Shown: one piece after another, positions 3,410 through 31,413 of the stretch
Position numbering within the stretch: position 1 is the first letter of the stretch
Layout of the letters: every line of letters starts with the position of its first letter
Virus record (IMG/VR): IMGVR_UViG_3300015610_000633
Location: 1 to 64,000 of that record
DNA: 64,000 nt
Strand: one strand, 5' to 3'
Origin: a virus
Taxonomy: Duplodnaviria > Caudoviricetes
The notes under the pieces: model-generated
The model's input: only the letters and a program-made list of their open reading frames with translations
Databases searched by the model: none
What the model was told of the DNA's origin: nothing
Position numbers and translations under genes: made by a program

Positions 3410-3698
3410 GATTCAACTCATTCTCTAGTTGTTCGATTCGTACACGCGCTTCATCGTACGCTTTAGACAGTTCACGGTGTTGGGTATCCAACTTTTTGAT
3501 CGCCTTGTCTTTACCCTCGATAGCCTTGTTTTGTTCTTCGATCGCTGCGCGTTGCGCTTTGGTGATCTGTACAAGTTCTTTGATTCGTTGGCTGTATTCA
3601 GAAGCTACCGATCGCGCCGCTCGCACAATCAACGTATGTGCATCGATCAACGATTCACCTGCCAATGGTTGTTCAAAGTCTTCAAGCGTTTTCATCAT
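3381..3698 (-). CDS. Coiled-coil hypothetical protein
   Basis: Heptad-rich helical sequence; 4-bp overlap with the upstream ORF. Confidence 0.6.
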   Translation of the reverse strand: MMKTLEDFEQPLAGESLIDAHTLIVRAARSVASEYSQRIKELVQITKAQRAAIEEQNKAIEGKDKAIKKLDTQHRELSKAYDEARVRIEQLENELNHAKATAPKV

Positions 3699-3937
3699 GG
3701 CTTCAACTCAACCTTCGCAATAGTTTCGTTGATGTTTGCAAGAAACCGAAGCAACTGCTTCACGTTGTATTCACCCGATGTACTTAGAATGATCTTATCG
3801 GGCAAATGTTCGAGGGCCATTTTCAAGGTCGGAAAAAACCCGCTACCTTTCCAAGTACCCTTTTCATTGATGATTTCGATCTCGTAACACAAACCTTCGG
3901 CCTGTATTCTAACACCTTCCATGATGTGAATGATCAT
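3695..3937 (-). CDS. Hypothetical protein
   Basis: 4-bp stop/start overlaps on both sides. Confidence 0.6.
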   Translation of the reverse strand: MIIHIMEGVRIQAEGLCYEIEIINEKGTWKGSGFFPTLKMALEHLPDKIILSTSGEYNVKQLLRFLANINETIAKVELKP

Positions 3938-4344
3938 CGTTCAAGTACCCTTGCGCTCTCACGAAGTATCTTCGCGGTAAGGTAGATCGATCGCTCTTCG
4001 GTTGTGCGGGTAGTTGCTGCAAGTATGCCGAGTTCTTTCAAGGTGATGTGTATTGCACCTAGCGCATTATCAACGAAGATCTTTTCACTAGGTGTCAACA
4101 CATCAAACACTTCGTTGATCTTTGCTTCGCTCACTTCAGAAGGTGACAACATGAACTTGTGACCTTCGCGAAACTGCACAACGAAAACATCACTTGGCGT
4201 AGGTAGTTCGGGATTTGCATTAGGCGGGCATTCACCCGGTGCGAACACTTCAACCGGTTCACCAAAAACACCTGTTCGTTTGTGTATCACCAACTTACCG
4301 AGAAGGGCCGACACCAACACGGTTTTCAAAGTATTGTCGCTCAT
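3934..4344 (-). CDS. Hypothetical protein
   Basis: ATG start downstream of a GCTGCATAAT promoter motif; translationally coupled to the next gene. Confidence 0.6.
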   Translation of the reverse strand: MSDNTLKTVLVSALLGKLVIHKRTGVFGEPVEVFAPGECPPNANPELPTPSDVFVVQFREGHKFMLSPSEVSEAKINEVFDVLTPSEKIFVDNALGAIHITLKELGILAATTRTTEERSIYLTAKILRESARVLER

Positions 4345-4717
4345 TGCTCAAGATCTCCATTACGTTCGGGTCAACCGGTGCTTCGGTTGTCACCTGTTCA
4401 TTGACATTATGCAGCCTTACGGGCTCGCTAGCGCGCCAGTTGTTCAACAATGCGTCGGCAATACGATCGGGGTCGTGTTCGGGCTTTATATCAAGTTCTC
4501 GTTCACTCCATTCATACCCACGAAGCCACCCACTTTTGTAACTAGCTTCGGCAAGTTGAGTGCAAAACAATATCCATTCAATGCGGGTTGCTTTCGGGTT
4601 CATTTCAGCGAACACCGCAACGGCATCACCGAGGCGTTTAGGTGGGTTAGGCCCTTCGTAGAAGATGCCCTTGACCTTCTCATACAGTCGACGCAACCAA
4701 CGCGTGAACAAGGTCAT
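4295..4717 (-). CDS. Hypothetical protein at the end of the ParB/PAPS-reductase cassette
   Basis: 4-bp overlap with the upstream ParB-like gene. Confidence 0.6.
   Translation of the reverse strand: MTLFTRWLRRLYEKVKGIFYEGPNPPKRLGDAVAVFAEMNPKATRIEWILFCTQLAEASYKSGWLRGYEWSERELDIKPEHDPDRIADALLNNWRASEPVRLHNVNEQVTTEAPVDPNVMEILSNERQYFENRVGVGPSR
4406..4415 (-). promoter_or_regulatory. GCTGCATWAT promoter motif
   Basis: GCTGCATAAT about 60 nt upstream of ORF 3934..4344. Confidence 0.55.
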
Positions 4718-5346
4718 CTTAGAAGCTCCAAGAGTATCGATCCGCTCTTCTTGTTTTCGATCTTCGCTCGTTCAATCAACAACCGTTTTGCACGATCGCG
4801 TTGATCAACCGAATCGAACTCAATCGACAAGGTAACCGATTTCGCGAACTCGGTGATGTCACTACCGTCGGGTTCAATATCGGGCGGGCTCGCAACATCA
4901 ATGAACCGTTGTTTTTCATCAACGGTGAAACCCATATTTCTAACCTCGTCATCCAACAACCTCGATTCGTTATCCAGTTCAAGCAACAACTCACCTAGCT
5001 TGCGACTGTCGAACTCACCCACAACACGGTTCAACGCTACGTTCAACTTCTTCGCAGTGCGTTCATTCACATCAAGAATAATGCAAGGCACCTTACCCGG
5101 CTTCGTACCTTTCTCTTGATTGATTTCAAGGTATGCACGAAGGCGTTGGTGACCGCCTATCACGATCATGCCTTCGCGTTGAACTATTAGATTCTCAACC
5201 CAACCATGCGTACGAAGCGAAGTCTTCAACGCTTCAAGCATTACTTTCGCGATCTTGCGCGGGTTGTATGGTGCAGGGTTCAAAGAACCCGCGTCTACCA
5301 TCGTGATCTTGTGCGATTTGATCTCGTTCATTGTGTTGTAACCCAT
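4714..5346 (-). CDS. ParB/Srx-like domain protein
   Basis: LNPAPYNPRKI, IGGHQRLRA, LNVALNRVVGEFD; short C-terminal beta-helix-helix (RHH-like) segment. Confidence 0.82.
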   Translation of the reverse strand: MGYNTMNEIKSHKITMVDAGSLNPAPYNPRKIAKVMLEALKTSLRTHGWVENLIVQREGMIVIGGHQRLRAYLEINQEKGTKPGKVPCIILDVNERTAKKLNVALNRVVGEFDSRKLGELLLELDNESRLLDDEVRNMGFTVDEKQRFIDVASPPDIEPDGSDITEFAKSVTLSIEFDSVDQRDRAKRLLIERAKIENKKSGSILLELLR

Positions 5347-5846
5347 CCCTTGCCGTATGACTCTTTACCCATTGATTGAGGCCCCGGTGTTGTGTCGAGC
5401 ATGCGTTTCAACTCTTCGCGATCCATACCAAGAAACCGTTGGATCTGCTTATCATCCAACCCCGATTCACGAAGCGCTTGCGTGATGCTTGCCATCTTCA
5501 AAATGCCATGCTGACCCCTTGCCCTATTGTGCCGAACTGTTGAAGCCATGAGTTGCGCCTCGCTCTTATTTCGAAGCACAACAACAGGTACAAGGTTGTT
5601 TGAAACTTTGGCCACTTGTTGATCTGTTGTGGCCAACGTCCAGCGGTGAAACCCGTCTACTATTTCACCACTTTCACGAACAACGATCGGTTGTGTCCAA
5701 CCATCTTCAAGCAAGCTAGTCTTCAACAACTGAAGTTCAGGACCAAATACATGGTTGGGGTTGTAGTTGTTCGCGTGTAGCGTCTTCGGATCAACCCATT
5801 GCACACTTGCAATCGGGTGAATGTTCTCTTGTTTCTTCTTAGCCAT
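5328..5846 (-). CDS. ibrB: IbrB/YbdM-like ParB-domain protein
   Basis: ANNYNPNHV, GWTQPIVV, IVDGFHRW, STVRHNRARGQH; adjacent to an IbrA-like gene. Confidence 0.85.
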   Translation of the reverse strand: MAKKKQENIHPIASVQWVDPKTLHANNYNPNHVFGPELQLLKTSLLEDGWTQPIVVRESGEIVDGFHRWTLATTDQQVAKVSNNLVPVVVLRNKSEAQLMASTVRHNRARGQHGILKMASITQALRESGLDDKQIQRFLGMDREELKRMLDTTPGPQSMGKESYGKGWVTTQ

Positions 5847-5861
5847 GTTTTCGCGCTCCGT

Positions 5862-7040
5862 TCACTTCTTCACAATACGGTTGCCAGCGGGGCCAACATC
5901 ACCACGATGAAATAGACTGACGTCATACTGCGTTGATAGTCGAGCTTTGAAATCACCGGTTGTAACAATACGGTAGATCGATTGCCACGTTAGCCCCTTA
6001 CCGGTTTCGGGTACGTCTGCATTGTTCGTTGCTCGATTGTGCTTTGCGATCTCTCGCCTTATTCGTTGAGCTATGTGCTTGCGCTCTTCTATCGGCCATG
6101 TTTTCAGCTTCAACATAACCGCTTCTTGCCACGTAAGATCGGCGGGCTTGTCTGCACCTTGGCTTGACAAGTACAACGGGCTTCGACTGTATCGCGCCGC
6201 ACAAGCCACACCCGGTACGCGCTTCAACATCTTTTCAAAAAGTTCAGGCCAGCCTTGCGCATACATCCAAAGCATTTTCATCGGTTCTTGCCCGAACGGT
6301 GGTGCAACACGTTGTGTTGAAGGTGACATGCCTAGTTTGCTCATAACGTCATAAGCATGGTTATAGTCCCAACCTTCGAGATCGGCTGCTGTCCAAACAT
6401 CGAACGCACTCCAATCATAGATCGGTTTGCAATACATGATGTTTTTACCACTAGGCGCGGTATGAATCCAGTTATCTTCGAGCTTGCCCGATACAAGCCA
6501 CTTACGACGCCATGACTCAGCAGCGCGTATACCAAGAATCATGGCAACCCGGCCCCATGATTTCGGTATTACATAGGGGTTCATTTCGGGTATAGGCAAG
6601 CGCTCACTCGGTGCACCTTCGATCGTATGTATGCCTTCTGCGGGCATGACGTTACACCACAACTCGCGATCTTCGGGTGCCCATGGTGACCACCATGCCT
6701 GTTCAGTTGAACACCCGTTACGATGAAGCACGGGGTAACAATACCATCGCAAGTTGATATCAGGTGATTGTGCAACCCTTCGCACATAGTCGATTGTTTC
6801 GGGTACGATCGCTTCTTCATCCCAAAAAATCACATCAAGCGGCAACTGCTTACGCTCACGCGCTACCTTCAACGCGATGTTCAAACATGTTGTTGAATCT
6901 TTGCCACCACTGAACGAAACCACAACACGATCATAACAGTCGTATACGATATTCATTCGCTCAATCGCGAGTTGCATCACATCTTCTTCGACCGTTTTTT
7001 TCTTGTAATACGCTGCTGTTTTTTCTTTGAACAATGTCAT
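5862..7040 (-). CDS. ibrA: PAPS-reductase-family (PP-loop) protein, IbrA/YbdN (DUF3440) type
   Basis: VVVSFSGGKDS PP-loop, FWDEE, LGIRAAES..R, PIYDW..DVW, YNHAYD, QRVAPPF. Confidence 0.85.
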   Translation of the reverse strand: MTLFKEKTAAYYKKKTVEEDVMQLAIERMNIVYDCYDRVVVSFSGGKDSTTCLNIALKVARERKQLPLDVIFWDEEAIVPETIDYVRRVAQSPDINLRWYCYPVLHRNGCSTEQAWWSPWAPEDRELWCNVMPAEGIHTIEGAPSERLPIPEMNPYVIPKSWGRVAMILGIRAAESWRRKWLVSGKLEDNWIHTAPSGKNIMYCKPIYDWSAFDVWTAADLEGWDYNHAYDVMSKLGMSPSTQRVAPPFGQEPMKMLWMYAQGWPELFEKMLKRVPGVACAARYSRSPLYLSSQGADKPADLTWQEAVMLKLKTWPIEERKHIAQRIRREIAKHNRATNNADVPETGKGLTWQSIYRIVTTGDFKARLSTQYDVSLFHRGDVGPAGNRIVKK

Positions 7041-7060
7041 GGTTTCGCTCTCCGTTACTC

Positions 7061-7080
7061 ACGTCTAACCGGGTAGACGT
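7061..7080. repeat. 20-bp palindrome copy 3
   Basis: ACGTCTAACCGGGTAGACGT on +; between the cupin and ibrA-like genes. Confidence 0.97.
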
Positions 7081-7826
7081 CATGCACCGCGTGCACTTGG
7101 CAGCGTGCCGATATAGGTACGGTTCAACATCGGGTGATTTTGATCCGTTGGCCCCCAATCGCTATCAGGGTGAAACGCGATCACATCCATGGTTGAAGGT
7201 GGATCGCTTGTCGGTTCACCATCAGAACAATACCCAAGAACTCGTTCATCGGTTCTAAACGAATGGATCTCTTGTTCGTCCAGCAAGAACACATGGCCCT
7301 TGTTCAAAGGTCGCATCCAACCGACGTTGTTACCCGTAGCGGCTCGCCATACTTGACCACGCCCACCCGAAACAACACCCATACGGATCGATGGGTGGGT
7401 GTGCTGCGTTTGAACGATATCTTCGGGGAAGTGAAGATGGTTCAACACCGGATCACCCTGTCTTGCAGGCTGAACCAACATTGAATCACTACAACCGTCA
7501 ATGTACGAAAGTCGACCCTTCTTCTCAACCTTGCCGATGTTGCACATCGCGCGGTAACCGTAGCGGGTAAACAGTACGAGCAACCCCGATTCAATGCGTA
7601 TGTGAACCTGACCGGGTAGAGCGAAGTAACCCCCTTCGCGCAACATCGCTGTGATGTCATCACGTTCAGAACGAACCGAGCAAGTACCTTCAAGTACATA
7701 CCCGTATTGTGATTGATGCTCGACACCCAACACGTAGAAACCCGGCCCAAACACTTCGAGGGTTGACGGGTACATGGTATGTGATGCTTCGAACTTTACA
7801 CCCGGTTTCGCTATTTCGATCTTCAT
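7080..7826 (-). CDS. Cupin-fold protein with metal-binding His motifs
   Basis: HLHFP...QHTHPSIRMGVVSGGRG and LLDEQEIHSFRT match cupin motifs 1 and 2; the N-terminal half resembles a second beta-barrel. Confidence 0.65.
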   Translation of the reverse strand: MKIEIAKPGVKFEASHTMYPSTLEVFGPGFYVLGVEHQSQYGYVLEGTCSVRSERDDITAMLREGGYFALPGQVHIRIESGLLVLFTRYGYRAMCNIGKVEKKGRLSYIDGCSDSMLVQPARQGDPVLNHLHFPEDIVQTQHTHPSIRMGVVSGGRGQVWRAATGNNVGWMRPLNKGHVFLLDEQEIHSFRTDERVLGYCSDGEPTSDPPSTMDVIAFHPDSDWGPTDQNHPMLNRTYIGTLPSARGA

Positions 7827-8521
7827 GGTTTTCGCTCCGTTGATTGTTCAAGTGCCCAAAGTATGGCTTCCGGGGTTGTACTAACACCCGCTTGTTTTTT
7901 CGCATTCTTCAACGCATCGTAGAACCGTTTTTTCAACGTAGGTTCTAGAAAAAACGTTATTGTTTCACCTTCTTTGAAGCGTGATGTTGGTGCAGGTTTA
8001 GGCTTCGGTTCAGTCGATGATGGTTCGTTCAAAACGTCATCGAGAAACCCCGCAGAATCATACTTCAAAGCATCAACTTCTGCACCGCTAAACCCGGTCA
8101 CATCGGCCACCCATGACACACTTGAACCTTCACCTTGCAAGATATCGGTGATGTATTTTTCAAGCTCGTCTTTAGTCCAGTCAGCGCTTATTCGATTCAA
8201 AGAAAGTGCAAGCGCTTTAGCCTTGGTTTCGTCAGGTACTTCAACGATTGTCACGGGTACCGTTTTCTCACCTAGCTTACGCATAACTTCAACTCGGTGA
8301 TGTCCGTTCAATATCTCGATTTTGTCACCCATACGGCGCCCAACAATAGGTTCAACAAATCCAAGTTCTTTGATCGAAGACTCCAATATTTCACCCATGC
8401 GTTGACGCATTCGGCGCGGGTTACCATATTGAAACGCCGTAATGTTTTCGATGTTTGCATGAACAAGCTCTACCACTCGCGACACCGTTACCGGTGCCTC
8501 ATTCTTCGGTTTTCGCGCCAT
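7823..8521 (-). CDS. ParB/Srx-like domain protein
   Basis: GNPRRM, LGFVEPIV, ILNGHHRV, LSLNRISADW, TGFS..EV; same architecture as 4714..5346. Confidence 0.8.
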   Translation of the reverse strand: MARKPKNEAPVTVSRVVELVHANIENITAFQYGNPRRMRQRMGEILESSIKELGFVEPIVGRRMGDKIEILNGHHRVEVMRKLGEKTVPVTIVEVPDETKAKALALSLNRISADWTKDELEKYITDILQGEGSSVSWVADVTGFSGAEVDALKYDSAGFLDDVLNEPSSTEPKPKPAPTSRFKEGETITFFLEPTLKKRFYDALKNAKKQAGVSTTPEAILWALEQSTERKP

Positions 8522-8552
8522 GCTGGCACGTTATCACGTTGTGTAATGTTGG

Positions 8553-9080
8553 CTACGTCAACAAGCAATCGGTCGGTTGAACCAACTCGAAAAACTTCAC
8601 CGCATCATAAACGATCGGATACCAGTCGTTTGCTTGAAGATGCTTGCTTACATCGAAGAACTCACACACCAACGCCGAAGTAAGATCCACGTTCAATACT
8701 GCCAAGTTTGTTTGAGATATCATCAACCACCACGGTTTGCGATTGCGCCGAAACAACATCATCGGGGTCACGTTCATTTCATGCGCTTGTGTACATGCTT
8801 GATGCCACCATGCCCACACCGGCGACTTGCGACCGTTCATGAAGTTCGACTCGCTCCAACCTTCACGCCGTTTCACTTCAACACTAAACGGGAACGATTG
8901 CGCGGTGGTCATCACATCACCCGAAGCCTTGAACGCGCTTCGTACATTCGCAGTTGACCACCCACCACTGGCCGGGGTTTTCACAAACTGACAATCTTCG
9001 TATTGTGACCACCAACTTTGAAGCATCTTAGACACTTCACGTTCAGCCACACCGCCCTTCACTTTGCCGTTGATTGCCAT
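8553..9080 (-). CDS. Holliday junction resolvase-like PD-(D/E)XK nuclease
   Basis: KGGVAERE, GD...SVEVKRRE, WWHQA, PMMLFRRNRKPW. Confidence 0.72.
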   Translation of the reverse strand: MAINGKVKGGVAEREVSKMLQSWWSQYEDCQFVKTPASGGWSTANVRSAFKASGDVMTTAQSFPFSVEVKRREGWSESNFMNGRKSPVWAWWHQACTQAHEMNVTPMMLFRRNRKPWWLMISQTNLAVLNVDLTSALVCEFFDVSKHLQANDWYPIVYDAVKFFELVQPTDCLLT

Positions 9081-9082
9081 GG

Positions 9083-11029
9083 TTACCTAGCCGTGATCTT
9101 GTTACCAGTTGATTGCGCTTCAATGAATATTTCACCGGGGTATCGTTCGAGTATTGCGCGATCGTGCGCAACAACGAACGCTTGCTCAAAACCATACGTG
9201 CTCTTCAGCATGGTTTCGATATGAGTAGCGAACAACTTTTTATTTGCATGGTCGAGTTGCCCGAAAGGTTCATCAAGCATTGCAAGCCCCCATTGCGTGC
9301 CACGTTGCGTTCTAAGCCACGAACTAGCGGCCAACTGGTAAGCAGCACCCGCCAAGTCTTCGGCGGCCCCTGAACGGTCACTGAGTGTCACTGTTAGCTG
9401 ATACTTTCGTGATTGAGTTCGAGGGCTTGAACACTTGGTACATACCTTGACCCTTTGACCCGGCCCGAATGTTTGTCCGCACTCTTCACAGTTCGTCGCT
9501 AGCTTTTTGCCCTCGGTGTACCATGAGATCTTTGTTTCGAGATCTATGCCGATGCCTTCAAGTAGCGCATTCGCGTTAGTTTCGATCTCTGCCAACGCTT
9601 GTTCACCTGCTTTGCGTTGCGCACCACTAGGCCCCAAAGCAACCGCCATAAGTTGCCACATATCGCGAAGTTCTTCGAACTTGCGAACGGTGCGCTTCAA
9701 CTCATCGCGCTTCGGGATCAACTCGTTCACCGATGTCTTCATTCGTTCAACCGTGGTTCGTATGGTGCGAAGGTTCACAAGACGATCCACATCATCACCG
9801 CTCACTTGTTGCGGCTTCGGGTTGTCACGTATCCAAGCAATGGCATCTTTCGCCGCTTCGTATTGCCTCCTGAACTCTTCAATCCGAGCTTCATCACGAA
9901 GCGTTTGTGTTAGCTGCTTTTCAAGTGAATCGACTATATCGATCAACTTGTTTTTTTCTTGTACAGCAACATCGGCTTCTTGCTTCTTCGTTCGGGCTTC
10001 TTCGGTTTGACTAGACAACTCAGCCTGTACCTGTTCGGGTGTATGACAACCCTTGCAAGTCACAGGACACACACCATCAAACCCGCGCTCAACCTGCTTC
10101 AAATAGTAATCGGCCGTTTGTGTCTTGCGTGCCGCTTCTGTTGTGAGCTTGTAAAGCTCCGTTCGCTTCTCGCTCAACCGTTGCGATATGGGTTCGCTTG
10201 ATGCACCCAACCGTTGTTTGAACTCGCGAGCGTTCGTGATGATTTCATCAACACTATCGGCCCTTTCTTTCATGGTCTGCCACTTCGCGAGCCTCTCTTG
10301 AACTCGCTCATATGTAGCAACCCGACCTTGTGCGATCTCAATCTCAGCATCCAACGCCGCGATCGCTTCATCGACTCGTGACATGTTCGATTCTGTCACT
10401 TCGATGTTTAGGATCTTAGACAATGATTCGATCGCCCTCGTGATCGTCGCTTCAACAGTCAGCAGTGAACCCATATTCAAGCTAACGGTTGTGGTGGTTG
10501 TCTTCTCTTTCTCTTTGGCTACTTCAACCGCCTTATCGAGCTTACTAAGGTCAAGCCATGCCTTGACCATGTCTAGCCGTTCACTCGGTGATGACAGAAT
10601 GAATCGGGCCATTTGCCGTTGCTCGAAATAACAGGTGTTGAAGAAATCACGTTGCGACATGCCGAACATACGCAACACCCGATCGCTAGCTACTTGATCA
10701 ACGAACTCGCCTTCATTGTCTTTCAAATAAAGTTTGGTTGCACCACCATCGCGAAACCGTTTGATCGTTGTGCCGTTACTCATCACCAACGTAACCGAAC
10801 CCGAACGTTCACCACGGGTGATCCATGCTTCTTCGCGATCAAACCGGTGATATCCGAACAATGCGAACGGTATCGACTCCAAGAACGTCGACTTGCCTAC
10901 CCAGTTCGATCGTTCGTGGTTGTGTTGTTGTCGAGCAACAACGGCGTACACCTTCGGTTCAAGATCAAGTTGTTGAAGGCCACGATATCGACACCAGTTT
11001 TCAAGAATAATTTGCTTCACATACATCAC
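9083..11029 (-). CDS. sbcC: SbcC/Rad50-like SMC ATPase
   Basis: Walker A variant NWVGKST, Q-loop YFEQ, coiled coils with CPVTC Zn hook, signature-like SGAAE, Walker B LAMLDEPFGQLD, His switch VVAHD. Confidence 0.88.
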   Translation of the reverse strand: MMYVKQIILENWCRYRGLQQLDLEPKVYAVVARQQHNHERSNWVGKSTFLESIPFALFGYHRFDREEAWITRGERSGSVTLVMSNGTTIKRFRDGGATKLYLKDNEGEFVDQVASDRVLRMFGMSQRDFFNTCYFEQRQMARFILSSPSERLDMVKAWLDLSKLDKAVEVAKEKEKTTTTTVSLNMGSLLTVEATITRAIESLSKILNIEVTESNMSRVDEAIAALDAEIEIAQGRVATYERVQERLAKWQTMKERADSVDEIITNAREFKQRLGASSEPISQRLSEKRTELYKLTTEAARKTQTADYYLKQVERGFDGVCPVTCKGCHTPEQVQAELSSQTEEARTKKQEADVAVQEKNKLIDIVDSLEKQLTQTLRDEARIEEFRRQYEAAKDAIAWIRDNPKPQQVSGDDVDRLVNLRTIRTTVERMKTSVNELIPKRDELKRTVRKFEELRDMWQLMAVALGPSGAQRKAGEQALAEIETNANALLEGIGIDLETKISWYTEGKKLATNCEECGQTFGPGQRVKVCTKCSSPRTQSRKYQLTVTLSDRSGAAEDLAGAAYQLAASSWLRTQRGTQWGLAMLDEPFGQLDHANKKLFATHIETMLKSTYGFEQAFVVAHDRAILERYPGEIFIEAQSTGNKITAR

Positions 11030-20016: not shown

Positions 20017-20036
20017 ACGTCTAACCGGGTAGACGT
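20017..20036. repeat. 20-bp palindrome copy 5
   Basis: Exact match; upstream of the sigma factor gene. Confidence 0.97.
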
Positions 20037-31393: not shown

Positions 31394-31413
31394 ACGTCTA
31401 ACCGGGTAGACGT
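31394..31413. repeat. 20-bp palindrome copy 8
   Basis: Exact match; 5 nt downstream of a promoter motif, upstream of the MTase-helicase. Confidence 0.97.

What the first reader, a model, noticed from the sequence alone, without database searches (positions are those of the whole stretch)
4295..8521. Three-ParB + cupin + PAPS-reductase (IbrA/IbrB-like) cassette, a candidate DNA-modification or DNA-binding system
Seen: a coupled run of ParB-like (7823..8521), cupin (7080..7826), palindrome copy 3, PP-loop IbrA-like (5862..7040), IbrB-like ParB (5328..5846), ParB-like (4714..5346) and an unknown ORF. The two outer ParB proteins share a ParB-N domain, a linker and a short RHH-like C-terminus. Known: PAPS-reductase-fold ATP pyrophosphatases include DndC/SspD of phosphorothioation systems. 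ParB/Srx domains accompany phage base-modification genes, and IbrAB biochemistry is unresolved. Inference: the cassette may adenylate and then modify DNA, with the cupin acting as a metal-dependent accessory. The outer ParB proteins might load at the 20-bp palindromes to spread the modification. No cysteine desulfurase is visible, so a sulfur donor would have to come from the host.
Basis: partly seen in the sequence, partly recalled or inferred. Interest (0 to 1): 0.78.

Follow-up and report, generated by a model that had tools for sequence, protein, structure and literature searches.

The report
Phage ParB-bicupin-IbrA-IbrB enzyme module
An uncultured phage carries a mobile four-gene enzyme set (two ParB-like proteins, a metal-binding bicupin and an ATP-using PP-loop enzyme) found in many other uncultured phages; it probably modifies DNA chemically, but its chemistry has never been tested.

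Summary
All six ORFs and their domain calls are confirmed. The "three-ParB cassette" is not one unit.

- **Mobile module:** ParB1 – bicupin – IbrA (PAPS_reduct + DUF3440, intact SGGKDS PP-loop) – IbrB. It keeps this order in 22 of 36 non-redundant viral loci.
- **Resident pair:** ParB3 – orf140. Syntenic sister phages keep this pair after the same PDDEXK gene but lack the module. One sister has a different cassette (TAGT + radical SAM) in that slot.

A ParB of the same family sits beside a TET/JBP gene in one phage and beside a C5-methylase gene in another.

The bicupin nearly always adjoins an adenylate-forming enzyme: IbrA, an unnamed PP-loop family, asparagine synthase or AMP-binding enzymes.

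IbrA scores far below the DndC, SspD and BrxP thresholds. The 73.7-kb record (estimated 81% complete) has no cysteine desulfurase hit. Phosphorothioation is therefore unsupported.

The 20-bp palindrome does not travel with the module, so ParB loading there is untested speculation.

My best reading (about 0.45) is ATP-dependent, ParB-assisted modification of DNA. A small-molecule or nucleotide role is the main rival.

The scan has already met this cassette type in at least 12 other genomes. I found no publication describing it.

The parts
7823..8521 (-). ParB1: a ParB/Srx-fold protein (N-domain 16-108, helical region 117-165, acidic linker, two C-terminal helices). It is the first gene of the mobile four-gene module.
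   Evidence: Family hits: Pfam ParB_N E 2.2e-8, phrog_620 and phrog_723. The AF2 model has pLDDT 85.5. Foldseek matches ParB, Noc and KorB over 135-158 columns. N34, G73 and R76 are invariant in the family alignment A2. Its closest relatives are the ParBs directly upstream of the cupin in L062, L015 and L007.
7080..7826 (-). Bicupin enzyme. The C-terminal barrel is highly conserved and carries a probable His-rich metal site.
   Evidence: The AF2 model has pLDDT 84.9. The best structural matches are DR1152 (1sfn), YlbA (1rc6) and ureidoglycine aminohydrolase (4e2q), at Z 17.6-18.5. H132, H142, H144, H188, H219, H231, C112, D110, D114 and E186 are invariant in 25 sequences. The family has 621 representative clusters. 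It lies next to a PP-loop enzyme in 30 of 36 non-redundant viral loci.
7061..7080 (.). One copy of the genome-wide 20-bp quasi-palindrome ACGTCTAACCGGGTAGACGT. It lies between the cupin stop and the IbrA ribosome-binding site.
   Evidence: The window has 16 copies. This copy overlaps the cupin stop by 1 nt and lies 20 nt before the IbrA ATG. It folds into a 7-bp hairpin with no U-tail. The motif is not shared by other phages that carry the module.
5862..7040 (-). IbrA-like PP-loop ATP pyrophosphatase (PAPS_reduct + DUF3440).
   Evidence: Pfam gives 54.6 and 42 bits, both above their cut-offs; phrog_2302 E 3e-79. Across 48 homologues the motifs FSGGKDST, DEEA, HRNgCS (C100, C110) and GiR..ES..R are conserved. 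It scores below the DndC, SspD, BrxP, CysH and CysD cut-offs. It has no sequence relative in the PDB.
5328..5846 (-). IbrB-like ParB/Srx protein, the partner of IbrA.
   Evidence: phrog_2159 E 1.3e-62; ParB_N 29.6 bits. Across 44 homologues the motifs YNPN, GWTQP, IVDGfHRW and HNRARG are conserved. It follows IbrA in nearly all loci.
4714..5346 (-). ParB3: a backbone ParB of the same broad family as ParB1. It is not part of the mobile module.
   Evidence: It is 58% and 56% identical to the single ParB that follows PDDEXK_15 in syntenic sister phages lacking cupin, IbrA and IbrB. It is only about 30% identical to ParB1, over the N-domain. Homologues sit next to Tet_JBP (L140), a C5 DNA methylase (P0161) and a radical-SAM/TAGT cassette (P0135).
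4295..4717 (-). orf140: a lineage-specific protein of unknown fold, translationally coupled to ParB3.
   Evidence: It has no Pfam, PHROG, NCBIfam or PADLOC hit. Only three relatives turned up among 5.8 billion proteins. One follows the ParB3 orthologue in a sister phage. Another ends a ParB - Tet_JBP - 248-aa cluster in L140.
8553..9080 (-). PDDEXK_15 nuclease gene. It is the conserved upstream flank of the variable slot and is given as context, not as part of the module.
   Evidence: Pfam PDDEXK_15 E 5.5e-30. The same gene precedes the ParB3 orthologue in three sister phages.

Best explanation
The region holds two things side by side.

(1) An accessory four-gene module: ParB1 - bicupin - IbrA - IbrB. 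It moves among very different phages as a unit.

(2) A backbone pair, ParB3 - orf140. In this phage lineage the pair marks a variable slot downstream of the SbcCD and PDDEXK recombination genes.

The module most likely modifies the phage's own DNA after replication. All steps below are inferred.
- IbrA uses ATP to adenylate an oxygen function on a base, or on a group already attached to DNA, releasing pyrophosphate.
- A nucleophile (nitrogen or sulfur) then replaces the AMP.
- The bicupin is a metal enzyme that prepares or finishes the same substrate.
- IbrB and ParB1 are NTP-binding ParB-fold subunits. They bring or hold their enzyme partners on double-stranded DNA, as ParB does for phage thymine dioxygenases and DpdB does for DpdA.

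What is shown: the gene set, its conservation, its mobility, the intact motifs and the folds. What is inferred: the substrate and the chemistry.
For: **Module conservation.** The order ParB - cupin - IbrA - IbrB holds in 22 of 36 non-redundant IMG/VR loci with enough flank, from 30% to 72% GC, usually with overlapping stops and starts. It also appears in Tara, Logan and ENA contigs in different genomic neighbourhoods.

**Composite origin.** Sister phages have SbcD - SbcC - PDDEXK_15 - ParB (56-58% identical to ParB3) - orf140-like ... ThyX - lysozyme, with no module. Another sister fills the same slot with a TAGT/radical-SAM cassette.

**Links to DNA.**
- A ParB of the A2 family (hhalign probability 99) directly precedes Tet_JBP in L140, and that cluster ends with an orf140 homologue.
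- A ParB3 homologue abuts a C5 DNA methylase.
- All three ParBs match the ParB domain of ParB-methyltransferase fusions, phrog_498 (E 6e-23, 3e-27 and 2e-17).

**Intact catalytic features.** The IbrA PP-loop and a conserved Cys pair are present; the G-x-x-R P-motif is invariant in the ParBs; His, Asp and Cys residues are invariant in the bicupin.

**Published precedents.**
- ParB activates a phage 5mYOX on dsDNA (PMC13229309).
- The asparagine-synthetase homologue CmoY ligates glycine to 5-carboxymethylcytosine in DNA, with ParBc genes in many contigs (PMC12783734).
- Enzymes recruited from small-molecule metabolism sculpt groups appended to DNA (PMC8989533).

**Cupin partnership.** The cupin sits next to IbrA, to an unnamed SGG[IL]DS PP-loop family, to asparagine synthase or to AMP-binding enzymes.
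Against: - No modified base, DNA binding or enzyme activity has been shown for any IbrA/IbrB protein. I found no biochemical paper on them.
- The bicupin's nearest folds are small-molecule enzymes (ureidoglycine aminohydrolase, BacB, quercetinase). TET, JBP and AlkB did not appear among the listed matches.
- Cellular homologues stand alone or are fused to class-I SAM methyltransferases. They sit in what look like small-molecule biosynthetic clusters.
- Phages that carry the module still show complete avoidance of some 4-bp palindromes, such as GATC, ACGT and CATG. This phage nearly lacks AATT and TTAA. A blanket protective modification is therefore unlikely.
- No enzyme that would create a handle on DNA was found in the 73.7-kb record: there is no TET/JBP hit, and Pfam named no methyltransferase among the genes I scanned.
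- ParB/Srx folds also include small-molecule and protein kinases (SerK, sulfiredoxin), which appear among the Foldseek hits.
Confidence: 0.45

Rival explanations
1. Small-molecule or nucleotide-level pathway. The bicupin and IbrA make, alter or destroy a metabolite or a free nucleotide. This could be a precursor, a modified dNTP or a host signalling or defence molecule. The ParB/Srx proteins would act as NTP-dependent kinases or regulators rather than DNA clamps.
For: - The bicupin fold is closest to small-molecule bicupins, at Z 17-18.5.
- Cellular homologues lie near asparagine synthase, AMP-binding, MBOAT, saccharopine-dehydrogenase-like and B12/radical-SAM genes.
- Some are fused to class-I SAM methyltransferases.
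- The ParB fold includes serine kinase SerK and sulfiredoxin.
- Phages with the module still avoid restriction sites.
Against: - Two separate ParB-fold genes are retained in the module across very divergent phages.
- The same ParB family neighbours TET/JBP and a C5 methylase.
- The slot also holds a different cassette (TAGT + radical SAM), possibly DNA-modifying, in a sister phage.
- The module sits inside the replication and recombination operon.
Confidence: 0.25
2. Gene-expression control. IbrA/IbrB act as co-activators of phage (late) genes, as first reported genetically for the E. coli ibrAB island and prophage eib genes. The ParB-fold proteins would work as KorB/VirB-like DNA-binding switches.
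For: - The only phenotype in the papers I retrieved is activation of eib expression by ibrAB (Sandt et al. 2002, as cited in PMC7649339).
- In several phages the cassette lies just upstream of the terminase genes.
- Earlier scan notes report the same position.
- This phage has a dispersed 20-bp palindrome at gene junctions that some DNA- or RNA-binding factor must read.
Against: - IbrA keeps a full catalytic PP-loop, and the bicupin keeps an invariant metal-site-like cluster. Both point to enzymes rather than regulators.
- Here the module sits in the early replication operon, not before the packaging genes.
- The palindrome does not co-occur with the module elsewhere.
- A modification could itself cause the expression phenotype.
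Confidence: 0.12
3. Dnd/Ssp-like phosphorothioation of the DNA backbone, with sulfur supplied by the host.
For: - IbrA shares the PAPS-reductase PP-loop fold with DndC, SspD and BrxP, and gives weak hits to them (E 1e-8 to 3e-5).
- It has a conserved Cys pair, C100 and C110.
- DndB is a ParB-fold protein (PMC10853773).
Against: - The DndC equivalog scores 23.7 bits against a cut-off of 290.4.
- No cysteine desulfurase is found in the record.
- Nothing resembling DndD/DndE or SspB/SspC lies in the module.
- Known Dnd and Ssp systems have no cupin.
- IbrA belongs to a distinct family, phrog_2302, with DUF3440.
Confidence: 0.05
4. RNA or tRNA modification. IbrA acts, like many PP-loop enzymes (TilS, MnmA, TtcA), on an RNA base.
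For: - Many PP-loop enzymes act on tRNA (general knowledge).
- IbrA gives weak NCBIfam hits to TtcA, LarE and QueC.
- This phage shows an odd absence of in-frame TTA codons.
Against: - Other phages with the module use TTA normally, for example 6 of 82 and 7 of 82 Leu codons at 50-58% GC.
- The ParB-fold partners and the neighbouring genes point to DNA.
Confidence: 0.08

Closest known systems
IbrA/IbrB pair (E. coli ECOR-9 ibrAB island; K-12 YbdN/YbdM; phage genes in PHROG 2302 + 2159)
   Same: It has PAPS_reduct + DUF3440 with an intact PP-loop, followed by a ParB/Srx protein carrying DGxHR. It matches both PHROG families strongly. About 30% identity links it to the annotated IbrA of Escherichia phage PhiR5_2.
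   Different: Here the pair is preceded by a second ParB and a bicupin, forming a fixed four-gene unit. The bicupin has no match in 50,697 deposited phage genomes. The biochemistry of the reference pair is itself unknown.
ParB-dependent phage thymine dioxygenases (5mYOX + ParB; PMC13229309)
   Same: A short ParB has a nucleotide-binding N-domain and a C-terminal domain but no clear DNA-binding domain. It is encoded directly upstream of, and coupled to, a jelly-roll-type metal enzyme. A ParB of the same family precedes Tet_JBP in L140.
   Different: The partner here is a bicupin of the ureidoglycine-aminohydrolase-like kind. It is not a 2-oxoglutarate TET/JBP enzyme, and the genome has no Tet_JBP.
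CmoX/CmoY 5-carboxymethylcytosine pathway (PMC12783734)
   Same: An ATP-dependent PP-loop-class AMP-forming enzyme acts on DNA after replication, and ParBc genes are common in the neighbourhood.
   Different: CmoY is an asparagine-synthetase homologue and needs the CmoX-made carboxyl handle. IbrA is a PAPS-reductase-type PP-loop enzyme, and no CmoA or CmoX equivalent was seen here.
DndABCDE / SspABCD phosphorothioation and BREX type 4 BrxP
   Same: A PAPS-reductase-fold PP-loop enzyme is paired, in Dnd, with a ParB-fold protein (DndB).
   Different: Scores are far below the family thresholds. There is no desulfurase, no DndD/E or SspB/C, an extra bicupin, and the system is phage-borne rather than a host defence.
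Dpd 7-deazaguanine system (DpdA + ParB-like ATPase DpdB)
   Same: A ParB-fold NTPase assists a DNA-modifying enzyme (as summarised in PMC12839542).
   Different: No TGT/DpdA homologue is present. The QueC-like signal in IbrA is limited to the PP-loop.

Membership tests
IbrA/IbrB-type pair | PAPS_reduct domain with a PP-loop SGGxDS motif | tested here: met
   PF01507 scores 54.6 bits against a cut-off of 22.5. The motif FSGGKDST is present and conserved in 48 homologues.
IbrA/IbrB-type pair | C-terminal DUF3440 domain on the PP-loop protein | tested here: met
   PF11922 scores 42 bits against a cut-off of 25, over residues 237-331.
IbrA/IbrB-type pair | Adjacent ParB/Srx-fold partner of the IbrB type | tested here: met
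   phrog_2159 E 1.3e-62. The DGFHRW and HNRARG motifs are conserved. The gene starts 15 nt after the IbrA stop.
IbrA/IbrB-type pair | Activation of prophage gene expression (the original phenotype) | not testable with these tools
   This phenotype is known only genetically, for E. coli ECOR-9 (cited in PMC7649339).
Dnd/Ssp DNA phosphorothioation | DndC or SspD equivalog | tested here: not met
   TIGR03183 scores 23.7 bits against a cut-off of 290.4. The padloc hits to DndC and SspD are weak (E 1e-8 and 2.8e-5) and partial.
Dnd/Ssp DNA phosphorothioation | Cysteine desulfurase (DndA, SspA or IscS-like) in the system | tested here: not met
   PF00266 has no match in the 73.7-kb record at E <= 1, whereas the controls hit in 14 of 14 genomes. 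The record is estimated to be 81% complete.
Dnd/Ssp DNA phosphorothioation | DndD/DndE or SspB/SspC partners | not tested
   None of the module's genes matched such models in padloc. The rest of the genome was not scanned with them.
Canonical ParABS partition ParB | Full-length ParB (TIGR00180) with an HTH DNA-binding domain | tested here: not met
   TIGR00180 scores 33.6 bits (ParB1) and 27.4 bits (IbrB) against a cut-off of 58.45, and gives no hit for ParB3. Structural alignment to ParB and Noc covers only 135-158 columns.
Canonical ParABS partition ParB | parS-type palindromes bound by the ParB | not testable with these tools
   A 20-bp palindrome exists in 16 copies, but binding cannot be tested here. 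It does not co-occur with the module in other phages.
ParB-dependent 5mYOX (TET/JBP) systems | TET/JBP dioxygenase partner | tested here: not met
   PF12851 has no match in the genome. TET, JBP and AlkB are not among the bicupin's listed structural matches.
ParB-dependent 5mYOX (TET/JBP) systems | Short ParB with NBD + CTD, encoded next to the enzyme | tested here: met
   See the AF2 model of ParB1 and alignment A2. The ParB that precedes Tet_JBP in L140 aligns to A2 with probability 99.
BREX type 4 (BrxP) | BrxP-type PAPS reductase with its accessory domains | tested here: not met
   The padloc BrxP hit is E 9.2e-8 at 28.7 bits and covers only the PP-loop core, positions 111-289 of 779.

The most novel reading that the evidence does not exclude
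The ParB - bicupin - IbrA - IbrB module installs a so far undescribed post-replicative DNA modification. Examples would be ATP-dependent replacement of a base oxygen by nitrogen or sulfur, or amide formation on an appended group. Two dedicated ParB-fold clamps would serve as the DNA-targeting subunits. This would finally give IbrA/IbrB (and E. coli YbdN/YbdM) a biochemical function.
Probability: 0.3. Interest if true: 0.85.

Novelty: new variant of a known kind. Interest (0 to 1): 0.6.

Why it matters
IbrA/IbrB-type pairs are common in phages, prophages and enterobacterial chromosomes, yet I found no biochemical study of them. The only reported phenotype (2002) is genetic.

The four-gene form is abundant in uncultured phages. 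I counted 327 IMG/VR relatives of its bicupin and 621 clusters at 50% identity. It has no cultured representative.

Three results here narrow the question and give a short list of cheap tests:
- the module is mobile;
- it shares a genomic slot with a different cassette, possibly also DNA-modifying;
- its ParBs belong to the family now known to activate DNA dioxygenases.

If it does modify DNA, it would add a new enzyme class (PAPS-reductase-type PP-loop plus bicupin) to phage DNA chemistry. It would also add a second case of ParB proteins acting as enzyme activators.

Tried and rejected
- **Close relatives.** Nucleotide search of the cassette and protein search of the bicupin against 50,697 GenBank phages found nothing. 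A single-protein scan of IMG/VR with IbrA also found nothing.
- **AATT/TTAA depletion and the module.** Rejected. Other phages with the module have normal AATT and TTAA counts and avoid other sites instead.
- **Missing in-frame TTA codons and the module.** Rejected. Other carriers use TTA.
- **Palindrome as a partner of the module.** Most of the loci scanned have no 12-mer in three or more dispersed copies, while the same test finds four copies in the first 14.5 kb of the window.
- **Palindrome as an intrinsic terminator or sigma-70 promoter.** It has no U-tail, and promoter- and terminator-like sites in 3500-9500 are no more frequent than in shuffles.
- **RHH assignment for the ParB C-termini.** No Pfam match even at E <= 10.
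- **A scan with the TET/JBP of L140.** It gave one marginal locus.
- **Meaning of Pfam 'TAGT' (PF20691).** I could not verify it from the paper library.
- **Literature searches.** I searched for IbrA/IbrB biochemistry, DUF3440, and the combination cupin + PAPS reductase + ParB. None gave a functional study.
- **Pfam on other unknown genes of the replication region.** No methyltransferase or other handle-making enzyme was found.

Full report
**Setting**

The window is the first 64 kb of a 73.7-kb IMG/VR virus record, estimated 81% complete. Nearly all genes lie on the minus strand.

The finding sits inside a replication and recombination block. That block holds DNA polymerase, primase, DnaB-like helicase, a UvsX/RecA-like recombinase, SbcC- and SbcD-like proteins, a PDDEXK_15 nuclease, ribonucleotide reductase, dNMP kinase and a long ThyX-like protein.

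**Observation**

The domain calls hold.
- ParB1, IbrB and ParB3 all hit ParB_N and several PHROG ParB families.
- IbrA hits PAPS_reduct and DUF3440 above their cut-offs, and phrog_2302 at E 3e-79.
- IbrB hits phrog_2159 at E 1.3e-62.
- IbrA carries the PP-loop FSGGKDST.
- The 'cupin' is a bicupin. Its AF2 model has pLDDT 84.9. Its best structural matches are DR1152, YlbA and (S)-ureidoglycine aminohydrolase at Z 17.6-18.5, followed by BacB and the quercetinases. TET, JBP and AlkB enzymes are not among the listed matches.

The genes are tightly coupled. The palindrome copy at 7061-7080 fills the only real gap, between the cupin stop and the IbrA ribosome-binding site.

**The module is real and widespread**

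The bicupin has more than 600 relatives at about 50% identity in a 5.8-billion-protein set. In a library clustered at 50% identity it matches 621 representative clusters. Most are from viruses.

A scan of IMG/VR with a 25-sequence alignment gave 327 relatives, and I examined 80 loci. I searched their ORFs with the window's proteins. I then removed near-duplicates and loci with short flanks. The 36 remaining loci break down as follows.

| Arrangement around the bicupin | Loci (of 36) |
|---|---|
| ParB - bicupin - IbrA - IbrB | 22 |
| IbrA + IbrB, no upstream ParB detected | 1 |
| An unrelated 354-404-aa protein with an SGG[IL]DS PP-loop motif and no Pfam hit | 7 |
| Neither | 6 |

The unnamed PP-loop family is documented.

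Contigs from Tara, Logan and ENA show the same four genes in different genomic neighbourhoods: next to terminase, next to primase, and after SbcCD. The bicupin is absent from 50,697 deposited phage genomes.

**The 'three ParBs' are a composite**

orf140 has only three relatives anywhere. One lies in a 32-kb contig that is syntenic with the window, gene for gene, from the polymerase to ThyX and the lysozyme. There, PDDEXK_15 is followed by a single ParB and the orf140 homologue. It has no bicupin, IbrA or IbrB.

That ParB (P0127) is 58% identical to ParB3 over 96% of its length. ParB1 and ParB3 share only about 30% identity, over the N-domain. A second sister lineage, represented by 14 contigs, shows the same arrangement.

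A third sister has a different insert between PDDEXK_15 and its ParB3 homologue: two genes hitting Pfam 'TAGT', a radical-SAM gene and two unknowns.

So ParB3 - orf140 is backbone, and ParB1 - bicupin - IbrA - IbrB is an accessory insert in a variable slot. ParB1's nearest relatives are the ParBs upstream of the bicupin in other phages, which suggests it arrived with the module.

**Evidence bearing on the substrate**

*For DNA*
- In locus L140, a ParB that aligns to the ParB1/ParB3 family profile (probability 99) directly precedes a Tet_JBP gene. A 248-aa protein with a DDD motif and an orf140 homologue follow.
- Another ParB3 homologue abuts a C5 DNA methylase.
- All three ParBs match the ParB part of ParB-methyltransferase fusions (phrog_498).
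- A 2026 PNAS paper shows that a short phage ParB, with a nucleotide-binding domain and a C-terminal domain but no obvious DNA-binding domain, is needed for a thymine dioxygenase to act on dsDNA (PMC13229309). ParB1's AF2 model has this architecture.
- A 2025 paper shows that an asparagine-synthetase homologue ligates glycine onto 5-carboxymethylcytosine in DNA. ParBc genes are common in those contigs (PMC12783734).

*For a small-molecule substrate*
- The bicupin's nearest folds are small-molecule enzymes.
- Bacterial homologues are mostly stand-alone. They occur in Myxococcota, Methylococcales, Bdellovibrionota and cyanobacteria.
- Their neighbours include asparagine synthase, AMP-binding enzymes, MBOAT and a B12/radical-SAM enzyme.
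- Some are fused to class-I SAM methyltransferases.

*What the two sets share.* The bicupin accompanies an adenylate-forming enzyme in most of the settings examined. The two lines of evidence fit together if an enzyme pair from small-molecule metabolism was recruited to work on DNA or on a DNA-appended group. This has been documented for thymidine hypermodification (PMC8989533). I did not demonstrate that it happened here.

**What it is not**

IbrA is not a DndC, SspD or BrxP orthologue, and the record has no cysteine desulfurase. IbrA does keep two conserved cysteines, C100 and C110. Sulfur chemistry on an adenylated oxygen, using host persulfide, therefore remains possible, although the Dnd-type backbone reaction is not supported.

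Phages that carry the module show complete or near-complete loss of particular 4-bp palindromes (GATC, ACGT, CATG, TCGA, CCGG, AGCT, in different phages). This phage nearly lacks AATT and TTAA: 5 observed against 172 expected, and 3 against 95. Such avoidance argues that the module does not shield DNA wholesale from type II enzymes. A sparse or sequence-specific mark is still compatible.

**The palindrome**

Sixteen copies of ACGTCTA-N6-TAGACGT lie in the window. Copies in the orientation of the one in the cassette mostly sit right after a stop codon, which often abuts as TGA, and 5-20 nt before the next gene's ribosome-binding site. Copies in the other orientation lie inside genes.

The motif forms a 7-bp hairpin with no U-tail. 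There is no excess of promoter-like or terminator-like sites in the region.

Most of the module-bearing loci I scanned have no dispersed 12-mer at all, whereas the same test recovers the motif in the window. The palindrome is thus a feature of this phage lineage and does not belong to the module.

Whether ParB1 or ParB3 binds it cannot be decided here. Their C-terminal strand-helix-helix pattern is conserved but matches no RHH model.

**Verdict**

The region combines a known kind of phage module (IbrA/IbrB) in a four-gene form not described in the papers I could search with a resident ParB pair.

Earlier follow-ups in this scan described the same or sister cassettes in at least 12 other genomes. 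It is therefore a recurrent finding of the scan and not unique to this window.

New in this analysis:
- the composite structure;
- the variable-slot argument;
- the family link between the module's ParBs and the ParBs associated with TET/JBP and C5 methylase;
- the link between the bicupin and adenylating enzymes;
- the negative results on palindrome, codon and site-avoidance links.

Noticed in passing
window:1-64000: AATT and TTAA are almost absent: 5 observed against 172 expected, and 3 against 95 (second-order Markov expectation). No other tetramer falls below O/E 0.54. Other phages with the same module do not share this; they avoid other 4-bp palindromes instead.
   Followed up: partly
window:3934-11029: None of the nine consecutive genes examined has an in-frame TTA codon, out of roughly 200 Leu codons. 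An earlier scan note proposes TTA as a stop codon in this phage. Module-bearing phages of similar GC use TTA normally, so the module is not the cause.
   Followed up: partly
window:13-63477 (16 copies, e.g. 7061-7080, 20017-20036, 31394-31413): The 20-bp quasi-palindrome sits mostly at cistron junctions, with a stop codon abutting and the next ribosome-binding site 5-20 nt away. It is found in the reverse orientation inside coding regions. It forms a hairpin without a U-tail. Its function is unknown.
   Followed up: partly
L061:5763-6977, L070:5889-6968, L081:5859-6980, L083:5835-6971, L086:5823-7010: This is a phage protein family of 354-404 aa with an SGG[IL]DS PP-loop motif and no Pfam hit. 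It always lies directly upstream of a bicupin of the same family as the window's. It is a second, unnamed PP-loop partner for this bicupin.
   Followed up: partly
L140:350-3087: The cluster reads ParB (234 aa) - Tet_JBP (288 aa) - a 248-aa protein with a DDD motif (possibly a glycosyltransferase) - an orf140 homologue. dCMP deaminase lies further downstream. It looks like a ParB-dependent 5mYOX hypermodification cluster.
   Followed up: partly
P0293, P0299, P0303 (proteins); L108:7725-9896; L121:4494-6236: Cellular relatives of the bicupin are fused to class-I SAM methyltransferases, or lie next to AMP-binding/methyltransferase proteins and asparagine synthase. This suggests an uncharacterised small-molecule pathway in Myxococcota, Acidobacteriota and Methylococcales.
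   Followed up: no
window:805-2184: This ThyX-like protein is 459 aa long. The Thy1 domain covers only residues 37-225, leaving a C-terminal extension of about 230 aa with no family hit. The long form (444-479 aa) is conserved in sister phages.
   Followed up: no
window:19382-20008: This 208-aa protein gives a weak Sigma70_r2 hit (E 1e-4, just under the cut-off). It may be a phage-encoded sigma factor, which could relate to phage-specific transcription signals.
   Followed up: no
window:4714-5346: The public gene call for ParB3 is 175 aa (P0125) and starts 35 codons late. Homologues of 206-240 aa align from residue 1 of the 210-aa ORF, so the longer start looks right.
   Followed up: partly
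L007:10520-15271: This 82-kb phage carries the module and has its own dispersed word, AAGTAAAACCGGT, in three copies within about 5 kb. The word is unrelated in sequence to the window's palindrome.
   Followed up: no
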